NCBI RefSeq assembly: GCF_009914755.1
Contig: NC_060926.1
Strand: one strand, 5' to 3'
Length of the DNA: 64,000 nucleotides
Origin: the human T2T-CHM13v2.0 reference genome, Homo sapiens
Shown here: piece by piece, positions 1 to 9,587 of the stretch
Numbering within the stretch: position 1 is the first letter of the stretch
Layout of the letters: each line of letters starts with the position of its first letter
The notes under the pieces: generated by a model
The model's database searches: none
The model's input: the letters and a program-made list of their open reading frames with translations, nothing else
What the model was told of the DNA's origin: nothing
Made by a program: the position numbers and the translations under genes

Positions 1-2950
1 TCCTACCTGAGTCTCCAGATACAGGAGCCTCAAACTAGAAAAACATCAGCTCCTCCCAGGGTCTCCAGCTCCATGACCCTCAAACTAGAATAACATCAGC
101 TCCTTCCCAGGTCTCCAGCTGCACGACCATCAAACTAGAACATCAGCTCCTCCCCAAGTCTTCAGCTGCATGACCCTCAAACTAGAACATCAGCTCCTCC
201 CAAGGTGTCCAGCTGCATGACCGTCAAACTAGAACATCAGCTTGTCCCCGAGTCTTCAGATGCACAACTCTCAAACTAGAACACCAGCTCCTCTCCGGGT
301 CTCCAGCTGCACGACCCTCACACTAGAAAGACGCCAGCTCCTCCGGGTTCTACAGCTGCATGACCCTCCAAGTAAAAAAAACACCTGTTCCTCACAGGGT
401 CTACAGCTGAACGAACCTCAGACTAGAAAAACACCAGCTCCTCCCCAGGTCTCAACCTGCAAGACCCTCAAACTAGAACAACATAAGCTCCTCCCTGGGT
501 TTCCAGCTCAAGGAACCTCAAACTAGAATAACGCTAGCTTCTCCCTGGGTGTCCAGCTCCACTACACTCTGATCAGAAAAACATCAGCTCCTACCTGAGT
601 CTCCAGCTTCAGGACCCTCAAACTAGAACATCAGCTCCTCTCCGAGTCTCCAGCTGCACGACACTCAGACTAGAAAAACTCCAGCTCCTCCCAAGTTCTA
701 CAGCTACATGACTCTGAAACTAAAAAACACCCTCTCCTGCCTAGGGCTTCAGCTGAACTAACCTCAAACTAGAACACCACCAACTCCTCTCTGGGTATCC
801 AGCTCCATGACCCTCAAACAAGAATAACACCAGCTCCCCCCTTGGTCTCCAGCTCCATGACCCTTAAAACAGAACAACATCATCTCCTCCCCGGGTCTCA
901 AGCTGCATAACCCCCAAAATAGAACATCAGCTCCTTTCCAGGTCTCCAGCTGCAGGACACTTATACTAGAAAAACACCAGCTCCTCCCGGGTTCTACAGC
1001 TGCGTGACCCTCAAACTAATGAAACACCAGCTCCTCTCTGGGTCTCCAGCTGCACGAACCTCCAACTAGAACAACACCAGCTCCTCTCTGGGTCTCCAGC
1101 TCCATGACCCTCAAACGAGAACATCAGCTCCTCTCCAGGTGTCCAGCTGGATGACCCTCAAACTAGAACATCAGCTCCTCTCCGGGTCTCCAGCTGCACA
1201 ACACTCATACTAGAAAAACGCCAGCTCCTCCTGGGTTCTACAGCTGCACAACCCTCTAACTAAAGAAACACCAGCTCCTCTCTGGGTCTCCAGCTGCACG
1301 AACCTCAAACTACAACATCAGCTCCTCTCCAGGTTTCCAGCAGCAGGACACTCATACTAGAAAAACACCAGCTCCTCCTGGGTTCTACAGCTGCACGACC
1401 CTCAAACTAAAGAAACACCAGCTCCTCTCTGGGTCTCCAGCTGCATGAACCTCAAATTAGAACAACATCAGCTCCTCTCTGGCTCTCCAGCTCCATGACC
1501 CTCAAACTGGAACAACATCAGCTCCTCTCCAGGTCTCCAGCTGAGAGACCCTTAAATGAGAACAACATCAGTTCCTCCCCGAGTCTTCAGCTGCACGACC
1601 CTCAAACTAGAACATCAGCTCCTCTCTGGGTCTCCAGCTGCAGGGCCCTCAAACTACCACATCAGCTCCTCCCCGAGTCTGCAGCTGCACGACCCTCAAA
1701 CTAGAACATCAGCTCCTCTCTGGGTCTCCAGCTGCAGGGCCCTCAAACTACCACATCAGCTCCTCCCCGAGTCTGCAGCTGCACGACCCTCAAATTAGAA
1801 CATCAACTCCTTTCCGGTTCTCCAGCTGCAGGACACTCAAATTAAAAAACGCCAGGTCCTCCAGGTTCTACAGCTGCACATCCCTCAAACTAAAAAAAAC
1901 TCCTGCTCCTTCCCAGGTCTCTAGCTGCACGAACCTCATACTAGAACAGCACCAGCTCCTCTCTGGGTCTCCAGCTGCAAGACCCCCAAACTAGAACAAC
2001 ATCCACTCCACCCAGGTTCTACGGCTGCACAACTCTCAAACTAAAGAAACACCAGCTCATCTGCCGGTCTCCAGCTGCATGAACCTCAAACTAGTACAAC
2101 AGCTCCTCTCCGGGTCTTCAGCTGCAGGACACTCATACTAGAAAAACGCCAGCTCCTCCCGGGTTCTACAGCTGCATGACCCTCAAACTGAAAAACACCC
2201 GCTCTTCCCCAGGTCTCCAGCTGCATGAACCTCAAACTAGAACAACAAGTCAATATGAGAAAAACGCCAGCTCCTCCCGGGTTCTACAGCTGCATGATCC
2301 TCAAACTGAAAAACACCTGCTCCTCCCCAGGTCTCCAGCTGCACAAACCTCAAACTAGAACAACACCAGCTGCTCTCTGGGTCTCCAGCTGAATGACCCT
2401 CAAACTAGAACATCAGCTCCTCCCTGAGTCTTCAGCTGCACGACCCTCAAAATAGAACACCAGCTCCTCTCCGGGTCTTCAGCTGCAAGACACTCATACT
2501 AGAAATTCACCAGCTACTCCCAGGGTCTGCAGCTGCACAACCCTCAAACAAAAAACACCAGCTCCTTCCCAGGTCTTCAGCTGCAAGACCCTCAAACTAG
2601 AAAAATACCAGCTCCTCCCCAGGTCTTCGGCTCCATGACCCTCCAATTAAAACAACATCAGCTCCTCCCGGGTCTCCAGTTGCACGACGCTCCAATTAGA
2701 ACACCTCTCCCCGCTGGATCTCCAGCTCCATGACCCTAACAGAAGAACAGCAACACCAGCTCCTTCATTGGTCTTCAGCTCCACAACCTAAGACATCAGT
2801 GGCAGCACTGGCTCCTCTGTGGACCTCCAGCTCAACGACTCTCAGACTTAAAAGGCAGCAACGTCTCCTCCCCAGGGCTCCATCTCCACCACTCTCAGAT
2901 TTGAACAGCGGTCGCACCAGCTCCTGTCTGGGTTTTCAGCCCAATGACCC
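1..2950. repeat. Tandem satellite, ~47-50-bp monomer (about 60 copies visible), tentatively D20S16-like; runs off the window's left edge
   Basis: Recurrent unit CAGCTCCTCTCCGGGTCTCCAGCTGCACGACCCTCAAACTAGAAC(AAC)AT across 1-2950; terminal units more diverged. The tandem array is certain; the family name is recalled, not verified. Confidence 0.9.
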
Positions 2951-2995
2951 TCCCTGAACAATCCCTTCTCATGAAATTCAGCAGTCAAGTAAATG

Positions 2996-3040
2996 AATAA
3001 ATGTTTTGTTTTCAAATAATAAAAATAAAAATAAATAAAA
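2996..3040 (+). promoter_or_regulatory. Polyadenylation signal AATAAA followed by an A-rich tail at the end of the satellite
   Basis: AATAAA at 2996-3001, 12-nt spacer, then AAATAATAAAAATAAAAATAAATAAAA at 3014-3040. Confidence 0.55.
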
Positions 3041-3170
3041 CTCAGTGTTAGTATGAACATGGAGATAAATCAAACTAAAAATTTTTAATGATACAAGTCA
3101 TTATATTTAGATATATATCTAGATAATATATTTAGATAATCTAAATATATTTAGATAATATATATGGTGC

Positions 3171-4055
3171 TATAGGGGAGGAAAAATACCTCTCTTTTTT
3201 CCATCTTAGGCTACTGGCTGAGGCCACATAACAAAAGACAGATTAACAAGAGAAAAGCATCTGAATTTATTTACTATAAATTTTACCTGACATGGGAGCC
3301 TTCATAAGGAAATGAAGACCCAAGGAAAGAGTTAAACCTAGTGCTTTCTTTTTTTTTTTTTTTTTTTTTTTTTGAGATGGAGTCTCACTTTGTTGCCCAG
3401 GCTGGAGTGCAATGGCACAATCTCGGCTCATTGCAACATCCAACCCCCAGGTTCAAGTGATCCTCCTGCCTCAGCCCCCGCTAGTAACTGGGATTACAGA
3501 CATGCACCACCATGCCCAGCTAATTTTTGTATTTTTAGTAGAGACAGGGTTTCACCATGTTGGCCAGGCTGATCTTGAACTCCTGACCTCAGGTGATCCA
3601 CCTGCCTAGGCCTCCCAAACTGTTGGGATTACAGGCATGAGCCACCGCGCCCAGCCAAACCTAGTGCTTTTATAGTGGGCTGGATGAAGAATAAAGAGTC
3701 GTGGAGAACTATGATAGGGCAAAAACAGTATGATGTAATGGCATTAAACTGGGGCAACTTAGTAAGGGCAGTATCTTCAGATTTTTCTAGGTATCTCTGT
3801 GTCTTTTGAGATAAGGATGCTCATTTCTTCTAGTTGTAGAGAAGTCATCTTTCACATGAGGGTCTTAACGATTTGCTTCAGGAGAAGATTGAGAAAATCC
3901 TTCCTAGGTTTTAAAACTGGCCTGGGGAGAAGGGTAGCAGAAGGTCACAGAGACATCCCTACTTCTGCCATTTTCTCAGATTCCTTCTGCTCAAAATATT
4001 CTGTATATATGCCAAGATGCCATTATTTTGGAGTAACATGTCCTAAACCCTATCA
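3171..4055 (-). mobile_element. ERV1 solo LTR, MER31-like, interrupted by an Alu
   Basis: Termini TATAGGGGAGGAAAA...CCTAAACCCTATCA resemble MER31 reverse complement; near-TSD GTGC/ATGC. Confidence 0.7.
3348..3656 (-). mobile_element. Alu (AluSx/Sz-like)
   Basis: Poly-T then Alu antisense body; perfect 14-bp TSD AAACCTAGTGCTTT at 3334-3347 and 3657-3670. Confidence 0.97.
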
Positions 4056-4374
4056 ATGCCTTAAGGCATATTCTCAGAAAATTAAAGCCATCTAAGAAAA
4101 AGAAAAATTATAACTAAAAGAGATTATAAACATTGTTCAACATTAGCTAAAAATAAGTTAATTTTTGCAAAATATATTTTATAAATGTTCATATATCTAC
4201 AGAACATTATTCATGAAAACATATATTTTAAAGTTCCCAAATGAATTACAGATATCAGTGATGTTTTATGCAATACTTTATATATGAAGTCTTTGATTCT
4301 TTTTCATTAAGCTAGTAAGAATCTGTTAATTACCTCTTATTTGGATGTCATTCTATTTATCAATACCTGTAAAC

Positions 4375-4595
4375 AGTTATTGAATGTTTATTATGTACCA
4401 GGCTTTTTCCTAACTTTTAAATTGATTTTCTTATAATCCTCGCCCTAGCCCAATGATATAGGCATTATCACTATGTTAAAAAGTTGAGAAATCGAAAATG
4501 AGGCTAAAAAGGATGAAATAATTTTCCCAAGATTATATAGCTGGTTAGCGACCAAGCTAGGAGTTAAATTTCTATAATCTGACTGCAGTGTCAGC
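4375..4595 (-). mobile_element. MIR SINE, degenerate
   Basis: Core-like GAAAATGAGGCTAAAAAGGATGAAATAATTTTCCCAAGATTATATAGCTGGTTAG. Confidence 0.65.
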
Positions 4596-5599
4596 ACATT
4601 TATATATTATCATGGTTACTAAAGTACATATTCCATGAAATAATGCCTATGTATTTTTTCAAAATCTCTCAGCATAAAAATTATTCAAACAACAATTTAT
4701 ATAGTTTATATACTACATCTTTCAACCAATATTTTGAATCACATCCATTTCCCTTCCAGATTATAACAAATAAATCCAAAAACCAGTAGGAGCCAAGGGG
4801 ACCACACACATAACCACCAAGTCTCCCCTCTCCTAGACACTCATCATCAAAACACCTTAGGCATTTTCATTTCTCTCTTTGCTTTTCCACTTCTCAGTTC
4901 TTATTAAAATAACTGTGCTTAGGGCTTTATTATCTCTAGCCTGCTTTGTTTTACAAACTTCCACCATTTTCCTTCTTCAATCAATCATATTTATCAGAGC
5001 CAGTGTTGGAAAAAAAATAAAATAAACACTATTCCTTTCCACTCATTTGCTTGAAAACTCCATGGATTTCTGAAACAAGTGCACACTTCTCAGTCAGCCT
5101 TCAGGACCTGATAACCGCACCTTACTCTTCCACTGTGTCCTAGAACTCTGTGCAAGAGAACTGGTCATCTGCTCCTTGCTTCGGCAATGGGCTTCCCAAC
5201 AAGAATGCACCCCTTTTCAATAAATGTACTCAAAGTTTGCTCTTTCATAAGATCCTGATTCAACCTCTCCCCACAAAGATTCAGCATTTCATGTTAAATT
5301 CTTCACAGATTTTTCCATAAATTATGTTTATAATATTTTGATTATTCAGTTATAAAATTACAAATTCTTCAAAATGGAAGAAATCTAGGACGTTATTTAA
5401 TTTTACATGTTTCAGATGAGGAAGATGGGGGCACTCAGTGTAGCAATACTTACATTTATATTTCGATACATTGTTCTCTTATTTCCAAATATATACACAC
5501 ATTTTTTTTAGTGTCTGAGCAAATCATTACCAAATAGTTATTGATTGATCAGCACTTGTATAACATAAGCTTTAAAGACTAGTATATAGACTAGTATAT

Positions 5600-5760
5600 A
5601 TCAGAATCATACTGAGGGCTGGTTAAATCAGTTAGCTGGGTCCTATTCTCAAAATTTCTAATTCAGTAGGTTTGGGGTGGAGCCTGAGAATTTGTCTCAA
5701 ACAGGTTCCCAGGTGGTGTTGAATCTGCTCATCCAGGAACCATATTTGGAGAAGAGGTGG
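5600..5760. mobile_element. MER5A-like hAT-Charlie MITE
   Basis: TTCTAATTCAGTAGGTTTGGGGTGGAGCCTGAGAATTTG...CAGGTTCCCAGGTGGTG is typical of MER5A. Confidence 0.75.
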
Positions 5761-6789
5761 CCTAGGCTATAAAATGACAAATATAATAACAGCCTATCGT
5801 AAAAAATGTCATACCTCTGTCCTTAAATTTTCTTTCATTCTATTTTCTTAATTTAATATACAGTGGTATAATATCAGAAGAAAAAACACATTTGCTTTGT
5901 GTTATTTTGATTTTAGTTTACCTAATTCATTATGTATAAAATATTGGCTTTTCCTTTTATACATTACTAATTCAATGAACTTAAATATGCTATTTTGATA
6001 ACTATAATTGAAGTTCTTTCCATATGAAATTAAAAAATGGTTTATTCAATATTATTAAAATATATCCCTGCCTAGGTTTAAAAAATAAAAAATGTTGAGA
6101 CAAAGGCTGTTGATCAGAACCATTTACTAAGTAATTCTTCATTTCTCACTACTGAGTGGAATCTGCCAAAAGAATGGAAGGTCATATCTTTGAGGACTTC
6201 CTCAGAGGTACAAAGTGCAGTCACAGCAGTACATAAATGAACAAGCCTAGCAGAAATGACCTCATTTCAGATTAAGAGAACAAGCTGCCTAGAATTCTTC
6301 ATAGCTAATGTACCAAATTCATACCACGCTTTGTCACTGATTTTTGTTAAAATTAAATACAAATTGGGAAGTTGTTGTACATGGCAAAAGAAAGCCGCTT
6401 ATCTTTAAAGAGCAAAGCTATTAGACAGTGACTAATGCAGGCATTCTATCACTATTCCTAGGAAAGCTGTGTCTGACATCTGTTATTTTTGTTTATTTTT
6501 ATTTTCTACATACGTTCAGATTGTTTTAGATGTGCCATTGTAAATATAACCAAAGCTTTTTATCTCAGTAGCACCTCCTAGAGCAAATAGAGTCTGCCAA
6601 GGAAGCTGGCAAAATCAGAACCCGCATCTACACAAACACTGGGACCTGAGATTCATTCATATATATATTTCATACCTAACACATGCCTAATTATAGACTA
6701 GGAAGAAAAATTTAGGGAAAGTATAAGAAATGTATATATAGTGTATAAATTTTATTATGAAGTATATTTAGAGTTTCCATAGTCAAACA

Positions 6790-9005: not shown

Positions 9006-9587
<582 letters not shown>

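What the first reader, a model, noticed from the sequence alone, without database searches (positions are those of the whole stretch)
2690..3060. Satellite array ends like a polyadenylated transcript: possible retroposed satellite
Seen: the array does not fade into flanking DNA. It passes through a few diverged units and a ~45-nt unique segment, then AATAAA (2996-3001), 12 nt, and a 27-nt A-rich tail (3014-3040). Established: this signal-to-tail layout is the hallmark of L1-mediated retrocopies of Pol II transcripts. Inference: this satellite locus was seeded by retrotransposition of a repeat-containing RNA and later expanded in place, which would explain dispersal of such arrays among chromosomes. 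Alternatively AATAAA is the working 3' end of a satellite lncRNA.
Basis: partly seen in the sequence, partly recalled or inferred. Interest (0 to 1): 0.8.

Follow-up and report, generated by a model that had tools for sequence, protein, structure and literature searches.

The report
Retroposed copy of D20S16 satellite RNA
This 3.9-kb block of the human D20S16 satellite looks like an old reverse-transcribed copy of a polyadenylated satellite transcript, so a whole tandem array reached a new chromosome through RNA, although most copies of this satellite spread by ordinary DNA duplication.

Summary
AATAAA is at 2996-3001, followed by 12 nt and an A-rich run at 3014-3040.

The array is the known D20S16 satellite: 50-bp units, with paralogs on chr20 at 49.57-50.29 Mb matching the clusters of PMC12287470.

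Fifteen other D20S16 loci carry the same conserved 318-nt 3' module and AATAAA. All fifteen read on into shared non-repeat DNA, so they are old segmental duplicates. The window copy loses all homology 16 nt after AATAAA and continues as a 23-nt tail with 19 A. Its flanks match no paralog.

A second copy at chr8:125.14 Mb comes from the chr20 clade. It ends within 3 nt of the same site with A9 and has a 13/14 target-site duplication at both junctions. Together these show that D20S16 RNA is polyadenylated at this site and has been retroposed at least twice.

- No TSD was found for the window copy.
- The array arrived essentially whole. It is collinear with chr8:69.75 Mb and shows only small local duplications.
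- Only 2 of 17 loci with the module are retrocopies.

The 5' inverted block is inherited from the source, not made by twin priming. The copy starts at the source palindrome centre, and this is unexplained.

This is a new member of a known kind, of moderate interest.

The parts
1..2700 (+). Forward D20S16 satellite units ('array B') of the retrocopy. The element begins outside the window at window -819 (L027:9181 = chr2:188,355,181). It opens with a 262-bp block of inverted units (L027:9181-9442), then forward units from L027:~9454. Whole element: chr2:188,355,181-188,359,040, 3,860 bp.
   Evidence: TRF period 50. L027 reading and TRF. Orientation map. Identified as D20S16 from unit length, the CAGCT motif in the TRF consensus, and paralog positions matching PMC12287470.
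2701..2950 (+). Conserved block of about five diverged units. This is the first part of the family's 3' module.
   Evidence: Aligned over window 2700-3017 at 82.8-86.2% identity to L002-L009 and about 70-72% to the chr6/chr20/chr7/chr8 group.
2951..2995 (+). Non-repeat segment of the 3' module. The window copy lacks 16 nt that all paralogs have between ...CAGTCAAG and TAAATGAATAAA.
   Evidence: Side-by-side ends.
2996..3001 (+). AATAAA polyadenylation signal inherited from the source transcript.
   Evidence: Present in 14 of 15 paralogs.
3002..3017 (+). 16-nt spacer up to the inferred cleavage site (…TTTTCAAAT). This is the last stretch homologous to the paralogs.
   Evidence: Alignments stop at 3015-3022. 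One search matches the window only at query 22-52 = window 2987-3017.
3018..3040 (+). A-rich tail (19 A, 4 T). No paralog has it, so it is read as a decayed poly(A) tail.
   Evidence: At this point the paralogs read cgatgtctcttttatg... instead.
3041..3170 (.). 3' flank of the insertion. It is low-copy DNA with no homology to the post-poly(A) flank of any source locus and holds no detectable TSD.

Best explanation
The window holds a 3.86-kb processed retrocopy of a D20S16 satellite transcript.

Source: a D20S16 locus of the clade now represented by chr8:69.75 Mb and chr5:26.33 Mb. Its layout is forward array A, a ~260-bp inverted block, forward array B, a 318-nt 3' module and AATAAA. It was transcribed on the strand that reads GTCTCCAGCTGCACGACCCTCAAACTAG.... 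The RNA was cleaved and polyadenylated about 16 nt after AATAAA.

Copying (inferred): the RNA was reverse-transcribed into chr2, most likely by the LINE-1 machinery. The cDNA carried the inverted block, all of array B, the 3' module and the tail. Array A and all source flanks are missing.

Shown: the shared 3' end, the tail, the absence of source flanks, collinearity of the array with a source, and an independent sister retrocopy with a TSD.

Inferred: L1 as the reverse transcriptase, a germline or early-embryo origin of the RNA, and an age of tens of millions of years (terminal branch 0.051 substitutions per site).

Since insertion the array has changed little. One ~97-bp unit pair duplicated at 99-100% identity, a 118-bp duplication stands at 95%, and 16 nt were deleted in the module.
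For: 1. 3' end. All but one of the paralog alignments that reach the end stop at window 3015-3022; the L022 row stops at 2993. 14 of 15 paralog ends examined continue past ...TTTTCAAAT with conserved non-A DNA. A genome search with that downstream DNA finds 15 read-through loci and matches the window only up to 3017.

2. The read-through loci are DNA-level duplicates. They share at least 1 kb upstream and at least 1.27 kb downstream. Longer homologies are nested: chr20/chr7 share >5 kb up at 93.5% and >9 kb down in blocks of 85-92%, and chr5b/chr2t share ~6 kb down in blocks of ~80-87%. The window shares none of this. Only Alu-sized hits appear.

3. Second retrocopy, chr8:125,141,667-125,142,645 (minus strand, 979 bp). 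It has 98-bp dimer units like chr20 and ends ...TTTCA + A9 at the same site. It is flanked by AAGTAATTAATTTG / AAGTACTTAATTTG abutting both junctions. A score this high occurs in 20 of 4462 genomic controls and 50 of 5000 shuffles. In the tree it sits in the chr20/chr7 clade (100/100). The window copy sits in the other clade, nearest chr8:69.75 Mb (90% identity, support 82/83). That makes two independent events from different sources.

4. The array came in whole. Best-hit positions of 200-nt chunks are collinear with chr8:69.75 Mb and with chr5:26.33 Mb (Spearman 0.74 in each; p 1.6e-7 and 1.8e-7). Of 76 100-nt chunks, 46 match a source better than anything else in their own array, 22 do the opposite and 8 tie. 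Within-array identity is at most 75.4% for HSPs of 300 nt or more.

5. The inverted block and its junction with array B are shared with chr5b, chr8a and chr2t, so they were inherited.

6. D20S16 is reported as transcribed in oocytes and cleavage embryos and highly in testis (PMC12287470, sections 6 and 10 read). That is the right setting for heritable retroposition.
Against: No target-site duplication was found for the window copy. The best local match between the 100 nt before the 5' edge and the 3' flank scores 11, and 1616 of 2075 genomic controls do as well. No 12-18-mer of the 3' flank, at 1-3 mismatches, occurs in the 9.2 kb upstream. With a terminal branch of only 0.051, a 12-15-nt TSD should still be visible, so its absence needs its own explanation.

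The 5' end is not random. Homology starts at the first inverted unit, 20-35 nt from the centre of the source palindrome. Simple 5' truncation does not predict this.

The tail is interrupted by 4 T.

No empty site, 3'-end sequencing data or outgroup genome could be consulted. The flanks are low-copy, so the pre-insertion site could not be rebuilt from repeat copies.

The middle of the array (about window 400-2500) is not cleanly collinear with any source.
Confidence: 0.8

Rival explanations
1. DNA-level (segmental) duplicate of a D20S16 locus whose two breakpoints fell, by chance, at the poly(A) site next to a pre-existing A-rich run and at the palindrome centre. No RNA step is involved.
For: Most D20S16 loci did spread this way: 15 read-through loci share flanks. 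No TSD was found for the window copy. A palindrome centre is a plausible DNA breakpoint.
Against: The 3' break falls within 3 nt of the end of an independent copy that has a tail and a TSD. It lies 16 nt after a conserved AATAAA and is followed at once by 23 nt with 19 A. The chance of a random break in a ~10-nt target within a multi-kb element is well under 1% (inference).
Confidence: 0.07
2. The locus is not a fossil. It is an active satellite lncRNA gene and AATAAA is its working 3' end.
For: The AATAAA and the T/GT-rich 3002-3013 are intact. D20S16 RNA exists in embryo, testis and tumours (PMC12287470).
Against: A working site does not put an A-tail into the genome or remove the downstream flank that all 15 source loci keep. 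The paper reports embryo expression almost only from chr20#4 and #5, minimal from chr3, 5 and 7, and none from other chromosomes. No promoter-bearing upstream source DNA came with the copy. Residual use of the signal by read-through transcripts is not excluded.
Confidence: 0.04
3. The copy is RNA-mediated but arrived as an orphan 3' transduction or chimeric read-through. A transcript driven by an upstream mobile element or gene ran through D20S16 and used its poly(A) site. Alternatively, the insertion was endonuclease-independent at a DNA break, which would explain the missing TSD.
For: There is no TSD and the copy is 5'-truncated relative to the source. The source upstream flanks contain old LINE-like sequence in the same orientation (seen; identified from recall only).
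Against: Nothing in the copy lies upstream of the inverted block, so no driver element can be named. The LINE-like flank looks ancient and interrupted. This is a sub-variant of the best explanation, not a contradiction of it.
Confidence: 0.08

Closest known systems
L1-mediated processed retrocopies (processed pseudogenes of Pol II transcripts)
   Same: The end lies at a poly(A) site 10-30 nt after AATAAA. The tail is encoded in the genome, the source flanks are lost and the copy is 5'-truncated. The chr8:125.14 Mb sister copy also has a 14-nt TSD.
   Different: The template is a non-coding satellite RNA made almost entirely of 50-bp tandem units (about 3.5 kb of array), not an mRNA. There are no introns to test. 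The window copy has no detectable TSD.
D20S16 satellite (Repbase/Dfam name; Hu, Mizuguchi & Hashimoto 2025, PMC12287470)
   Same: Units of 49-53 bp with CAGCT. Loci lie on chr2, 3, 5-9 and 20, with five clusters at chr20:49.57-50.29 Mb. chr8#2 groups with the chr20 49-bp type, and there is a 50-bp type on chr2.
   Different: The paper (sections 6, 7, 9-13 read; 'find' over the whole text) treats all 20 clusters as tandem-repeat elements. 'polyaden' and 'segmental' each occur 0 times in it.
SVA / LAVA composite VNTR retrotransposons
   Same: These are RNAs with a long internal VNTR of ~35-50-bp units and a 3' unique part ending in AATAAA plus poly(A), mobilised in trans by L1.
   Different: SVA-type elements amplify serially to hundreds or thousands of copies from master copies. 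Here only two retrocopies were found, each from a different DNA-level source clade, with no copy-of-a-copy lineage. No hexamer, Alu-like or SINE-R parts are present.
Reverse-transcribed satellite RNA in tumours (HSATII RNA-derived DNA; recalled, not read here)
   Same: Satellite RNA serves as a template for new satellite DNA.
   Different: That process is described as local expansion in somatic cancer cells. Here the event is a germline, fixed, interchromosomal insertion with retrocopy hallmarks.

Membership tests
L1-mediated processed retrocopy | 3' end at a polyadenylation site shortly after AAUAAA | tested here: met
   Homology to 15 paralogs ends 16 nt after AATAAA.
L1-mediated processed retrocopy | Genomic poly(A) tail that the source locus does not encode | tested here: met
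   3018-3040 holds 19 A in 23 nt. The sources read cgatgtctc... at this point.
L1-mediated processed retrocopy | Target-site duplication of about 7-20 bp flanking the insert | tested here: not met
   Window copy: none found (1616 of 2075 controls score as well, no match in 9.2 kb). The sister copy on chr8 has 13/14 nt abutting both ends.
L1-mediated processed retrocopy | Flanks unrelated to the source locus (no promoter or downstream DNA carried along) | tested here: met
   Only Alu-sized hits link the window flanks to source flanks.
L1-mediated processed retrocopy | Empty (unfilled) site in an outgroup or in other haplotypes | not testable with these tools
   No other primate genome or human pangenome is held. 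The flanks are low-copy, so no paralogous empty site exists.
L1-mediated processed retrocopy | L1 endonuclease-type target (TT/AAAA-like) at the junction | tested here: inconclusive
   The chr8 copy was inserted at ...AATT/AAGTA. The window's 5' junction cannot be defined without a TSD.
D20S16 satellite | Tandem units of about 49-53 bp with the conserved CAGCT motif | tested here: met
   The TRF consensus of 50 nt contains CAGCT twice. The definition is from PMC12287470 section 7.
D20S16 satellite | Paralogous arrays at the published D20S16 clusters (chr20:49.571-50.286 Mb; chr2, 3, 5-9) | tested here: met
   Genome hits at chr20:49.57-50.29 Mb and on chr2, 3, 5, 6, 7, 8 and 9, compared.
D20S16 satellite | Match to the Repbase/Dfam D20S16 model, or listing of this locus in the paper's Table S1 | not testable with these tools
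   No Dfam or RepeatMasker library is held. Table S1 is an image and gave no text.
Twin-priming 5' inversion | An inverted 5' segment created at insertion and absent from the source | tested here: not met
   All 8 source-type loci mapped carry the same inverted block. Three of them (chr5b, chr8a, chr2t) share the window's junction with array B.
Segmental-duplication paralog | Flanking non-repeat DNA shared with other copies | tested here: not met
   Met by the 15 read-through loci, not by the window copy.
SVA-like amplifying composite retrotransposon | Many copies descending from retrocopies (master lineage) | tested here: not met
   Only 2 poly(A)-ended copies among the 17 loci with the 3' module. 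They fall in different clades.

The most novel reading that the evidence does not exclude
D20S16 is a satellite with a gene-like transcription unit. It has a conserved 3' module and a working poly(A) site, kept in 15 duplicated loci for tens of millions of years. Its RNA has seeded kilobase-scale arrays on new chromosomes at least twice by retroposition. The window copy starts at the loop of a ~250-bp RNA hairpin formed by array A and the inverted block. This hints that the transcript is processed at that hairpin, or that reverse transcription stops there, so the satellite RNA may have a defined, structured 5' end.
Probability: 0.2. Interest if true: 0.7.

Novelty: new member of a known kind. 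Interest (0 to 1): 0.5.

Why it matters
D20S16 is called 'poorly understood' in a 2025 preprint (10.1101/2025.10.09.681516, passage seen). It has recently drawn interest for its burst of transcription in human cleavage embryos, testis and tumours.

This work gives the satellite three things:
- a defined transcript 3' end, with the hexamer position and strand;
- a family structure of array A, inverted block, array B and 3' module;
- a two-route history, mostly segmental duplication plus at least two RNA-mediated jumps.

It shows concretely that a multi-kb tandem array can move between chromosomes as RNA. It also offers a genomic 'fossil 3'-end tag' that can be checked against 3'-end sequencing.

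The mechanism itself, L1 copying a polyadenylated RNA, is textbook. The advance is descriptive, not conceptual.

Tried and rejected
- **Twin priming** as the origin of the inverted units at the 5' end: rejected, because the block is in all 8 mapped source loci.
- **ERV LTR (U3-R-U5)** as the source: considered because the paralogs read on past AATAAA. Rejected for now. The upstream and downstream flanks share no LTR-like repeat (best hit 22 nt, E 0.03). The post-poly(A) DNA is low-copy, with 15 loci only. Homology lengths are nested like segmental duplications. The MLT2B4 similarity reported in PMC12287470 could not be tested because no consensus is held.
none found. A by-eye candidate (L027:9120-9134 against window 3037-3053) did not beat controls and lies 45 nt before the start of homology.
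- **Homology upstream of L027:9181**: not significant (p 0.055-0.98).
- **Empty-site reconstruction from repeat copies**: not possible. The 5' flank is unique. Only window ~3171-3340 of the 3' flank belongs to a high-copy repeat.
- **Rfam**: no family at gathering score in window 1-6000.
- **Coding potential of the units**: ruled out by reading. The 50-nt period visits all three frames, and the unit carries TAG in CTAGAA.
- **Arrays at chr3:0.85 Mb and chr9:149.01 Mb**: both are cut off by other DNA, with no 3' module in the next ~1.1-1.2 kb. They are left unclassified.
- **Literature**: two searches for satellite retrocopies (0 and 32 papers) returned no listed title or abstract about D20S16 retroposition. 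The 1995 Genomics paper on D20S16 (PubMed 7789973) is not held and may bear on the 'interspersed' nature of the repeat.
Full report
**1. What is in the sequence**

Window 1-2701 is a tandem array of 50-bp units. TRF reports 45.7 copies at 75% matches for 11-2247 and 9.1 copies at 78% for 2258-2701. The rest of the layout is read directly:
- about five diverged units (2701-2950);
- a non-repeat stretch (2951-2995);
- AATAAA (2996-3001);
- 12 nt of T/G-rich sequence;
- an A-rich run (3014-3040).

The array continues upstream of the window. In L027 (chr2:188,346,001-188,356,000), forward units run from about 9454 to the end. They are preceded by 262 bp of inverted units (9181-9442). Nothing related lies in the 9.1 kb before that. 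The whole element is chr2:188,355,181-188,359,040, 3,860 bp.

**2. What the repeat is**

A search of the window's own genome with 2880-3060 found 25 other places:
- chr3 (198.35, 198.41, 198.73 and 200.38 Mb);
- chr5 (0.27, 1.54 and 26.33 Mb);
- chr2:242.53 Mb;
- chr8 (69.75 and 125.14 Mb);
- chr6:151.25 Mb;
- chr7:57.46 Mb;
- chr20:49.57-50.29 Mb.

A search with array units added chr3:0.85 Mb and chr9:149.01 Mb.

This distribution fits the D20S16 satellite as described on CHM13 by Hu, Mizuguchi and Hashimoto 2025 (PMC12287470; sections 6, 7, 9-13 read). The unit length, the CAGCT motif in the consensus and the 98-bp dimers on chr20 also fit. That paper reports:
- 20 clusters on chr2, 3, 5-9 and 20;
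- five clusters at chr20:49.571-50.286 Mb;
- a 50-bp type on chr2;
- chr8#2 grouping with chr20;
- transcription in oocytes and cleavage embryos and in testis.

I could not run a Dfam model, and the paper's Table S1 is an image. The family name therefore rests on these matches.

**3. The 3' end is a conserved module, and almost all paralogs read through it**

Window 2700-3017 aligns to 16 paralog rows at 70-86% identity. All but one of the alignments that reach the end stop at window 3015-3022; the L022 row stops at 2993.

Fifteen paralog ends were laid side by side:
- 14 continue after ...AATAAATGTTTTGTTTTCAAAT with the same non-A sequence (cgatgtctcttttatgttcatg...);
- one (L019, chr8:125.14 Mb) ends in an A-run.

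A genome search with that downstream DNA found 15 read-through loci. It matched the window only at 2987-3017.

Beyond the poly(A) site the read-through loci share a further 1.27 kb or more, including a second array of 77-bp units. They also share 1-1.9 kb upstream of the arrays. Longer homologies are nested:
- chr20/chr7 share >5 kb upstream at 93.5% and >9 kb downstream in blocks of 85-92%;
- chr5:26.33 Mb and chr2:242.53 Mb share about 6 kb downstream in blocks of ~80-87%.

That is the pattern of old segmental duplications. It is not the pattern of a transposable element with fixed ends. The upstream and downstream flanks do not resemble each other, and the downstream DNA is low-copy. I therefore dropped the idea of an LTR source.

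**4. The window copy is different in kind**

It shares nothing with these flanks on either side. Only Alu-sized hits appear. The 5' flank is unique in the genome. The 3' flank is unique for its first ~130 nt.

Where the others read on, the window has 23 nt with 19 A. The break lies 16 nt after AATAAA, a canonical cleavage distance by established knowledge.

**5. An independent second case**

chr8:125,141,667-125,142,645 (minus strand, 979 bp) carries about ten units organised as the chr20-type 98-bp dimer, then the 3' module and AATAAA. It ends ...TTTCA plus nine A, within 3 nt of the window's end.

It is flanked by AAGTAATTAATTTG and AAGTACTTAATTTG, which abut both junctions. A match that good anywhere in the tested flanks occurs in 20 of 4462 genomic controls and 50 of 5000 shuffles.

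A maximum-likelihood tree of the 3' region has 15 rows. I left out L010, which is a partial match.
- The chr8:125.14 Mb copy falls inside the chr20/chr7 clade (100/100).
- The window copy falls in the other major clade (100/100), nearest chr8:69.75 Mb (90% identity over 407 columns; sister support 82/83, which is weak).

Two copies from two different source clades end at one site with A-tails. This is the strongest evidence that the site is a real poly(A) site of D20S16 RNA, and that both copies were made from RNA.

**6. The inverted block is inherited**

All eight source-type loci that I mapped have the order forward array A (1-2 kb), inverted block (~200-580 bp), forward array B (2-10 kb), 3' module. 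The window's inverted block and its junction with array B align base for base with those of chr5:26.33 Mb, chr8:69.75 Mb and chr2:242.53 Mb. Twin priming is therefore not the cause.

The window copy lacks array A. Homology starts at the first inverted unit, and nothing significant lies upstream of it.

In a source RNA, array A and the inverted block fold into a hairpin of about 250 bp (L037:7400-7945, -286.6 kcal/mol, z -15.65, 0 of 100 shuffles as stable). The window copy begins 20-35 nt past its loop.

**7. Did the array expand in place?**

Mostly not.
- Best-hit positions of 200-nt chunks of the window element are collinear with chr8:69.75 Mb and with chr5:26.33 Mb (Spearman 0.74 in each; p 1.6e-7 and 1.8e-7). 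The first ~1.2 kb and the last ~0.45 kb are strictly in register at 77-94% identity.
- Units inside the window array resemble one another less. The median is 73.5% and the maximum 75.4% for the 31 self-HSPs of 300 nt or more.
- Of 76 100-nt chunks, 46 have a better match in a source than in their own array, 22 the reverse, and 8 tie.

Clear local duplications are limited to three places: window ~1585-1785 (two ~97-bp copies at 99-100%), 2140-2365 (118 bp x 1.9 at 95%) and ~935-1035 against 1335-1435 (91-93%).

The middle of the array is not cleanly collinear with any source. Some gain or loss on either side is likely. Array B is 3.5 kb here, against 2.2-3.6 kb in the nearest sources.

**8. What does not fit**

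No TSD exists for the window copy, although the terminal branch is only 0.051 substitutions per site. An Alu 300 nt away keeps a perfect 14-nt TSD (3334-3347 and 3657-3670), though that Alu may be much younger.

The 5' end at the palindrome centre is also unlikely by chance. My rough estimate is about 1% for a ±30-nt target in an RNA of 5 kb or more.

One event could explain both anomalies. A fuller retrocopy may later have broken at the palindrome centre and lost array A together with the 5' TSD. Other possibilities are that the RNA was cut at the hairpin, that reverse transcription ended there, or that the insertion was endonuclease-independent. None of these was tested.

**9. Verdict**

The finding is a retroposed copy of a polyadenylated D20S16 satellite transcript (confidence 0.8). 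It is probably tens of millions of years old. This age is an inference from the branch length, and no outgroup was available.

Its TSD, its 'expanded in place' step and its claim that retroposition explains the family's dispersal are not. 15 of the 17 loci with the 3' module are DNA duplicates.

In PMC12287470, a 'find' over the whole text gives 0 hits for 'polyaden' and 0 for 'segmental', and the 4 hits for 'retrotranspos' concern MLT2B4 or references. In the 2025 Telomere-C preprint, 'retrotranspos', 'polyaden' and 'segmental dup' each give 0 hits. Two further full-text searches found nothing on D20S16 retroposition. The 1995 Genomics paper on D20S16 could not be read.

The mechanism is a known one applied to an unusual template. 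I class this as a new member of a known kind, of moderate interest.

Noticed in passing
window 3334-3670: An Alu in minus orientation (T-run at 3348-3373, body to 3656) is flanked by a perfect 14-nt TSD, AAACCTAGTGCTTT, at 3334-3347 and 3657-3670. It sits inside a high-copy interspersed repeat that starts near 3171 (1546 first-look candidates genome-wide).
   Followed up: partly
window 3102-3140: A short AT-rich tandem (TATATTTAGATAA x 3, TRF score 64) lies 60 nt after the tail. One arm also matches its own reverse complement (last row).
   Followed up: no
window 1585-1785: Two adjacent ~97-bp two-unit blocks are 99-100% identical. This is a recent in-place tandem duplication inside an otherwise diverged array. 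A 118-bp duplication at 2140-2365 stands at 95%.
   Followed up: yes
window 2985-2991 (gap relative to paralogs): The window copy lacks 16 nt (AAAACTGCAGC.GAAG in the paralogs) between ...CAGTCAAG and TAAATGAATAAA. All 15 paralogs keep it.
   Followed up: partly
L008:1950-2450, L005, L009, L002, L006 (source loci, about 330 nt after AATAAA): A second tandem array of ~77-bp GC-rich units lies downstream of the poly(A) site. It has one copy in the chr6, chr20 and chr7 loci and about 2-7 copies in the chr2t, chr3 and chr5 loci.
   Followed up: partly
L028:4555-6655 and L029:295-1700 (chr6 source locus flanks): The shared flanks of the source loci contain old LINE-like sequence upstream (same orientation) and a mariner-type MITE-like inverted pair downstream. 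That pair holds a small D20S16-like insert (…CTGCAGCACCGGCTCCTCCCTGC…). The TE names are from recall, not from a tool.
   Followed up: no
L047:1-360 (chr3:0.853 Mb) and L048:1-270 (chr9:149.012 Mb): Two further D20S16 arrays end abruptly against unrelated DNA, with no 3' module in the next ~1.1-1.2 kb. L048 is followed by an Alu and what looks like a processed pseudogene fragment. Their mode of origin is open.
   Followed up: partly
L007 (chr8:69.75 Mb), about 303 nt after AATAAA: The nearest relative of the window copy is itself interrupted by a LINE-like insertion 303 nt past the poly(A) signal. This is why its homology to other sources stops there.
   Followed up: partly
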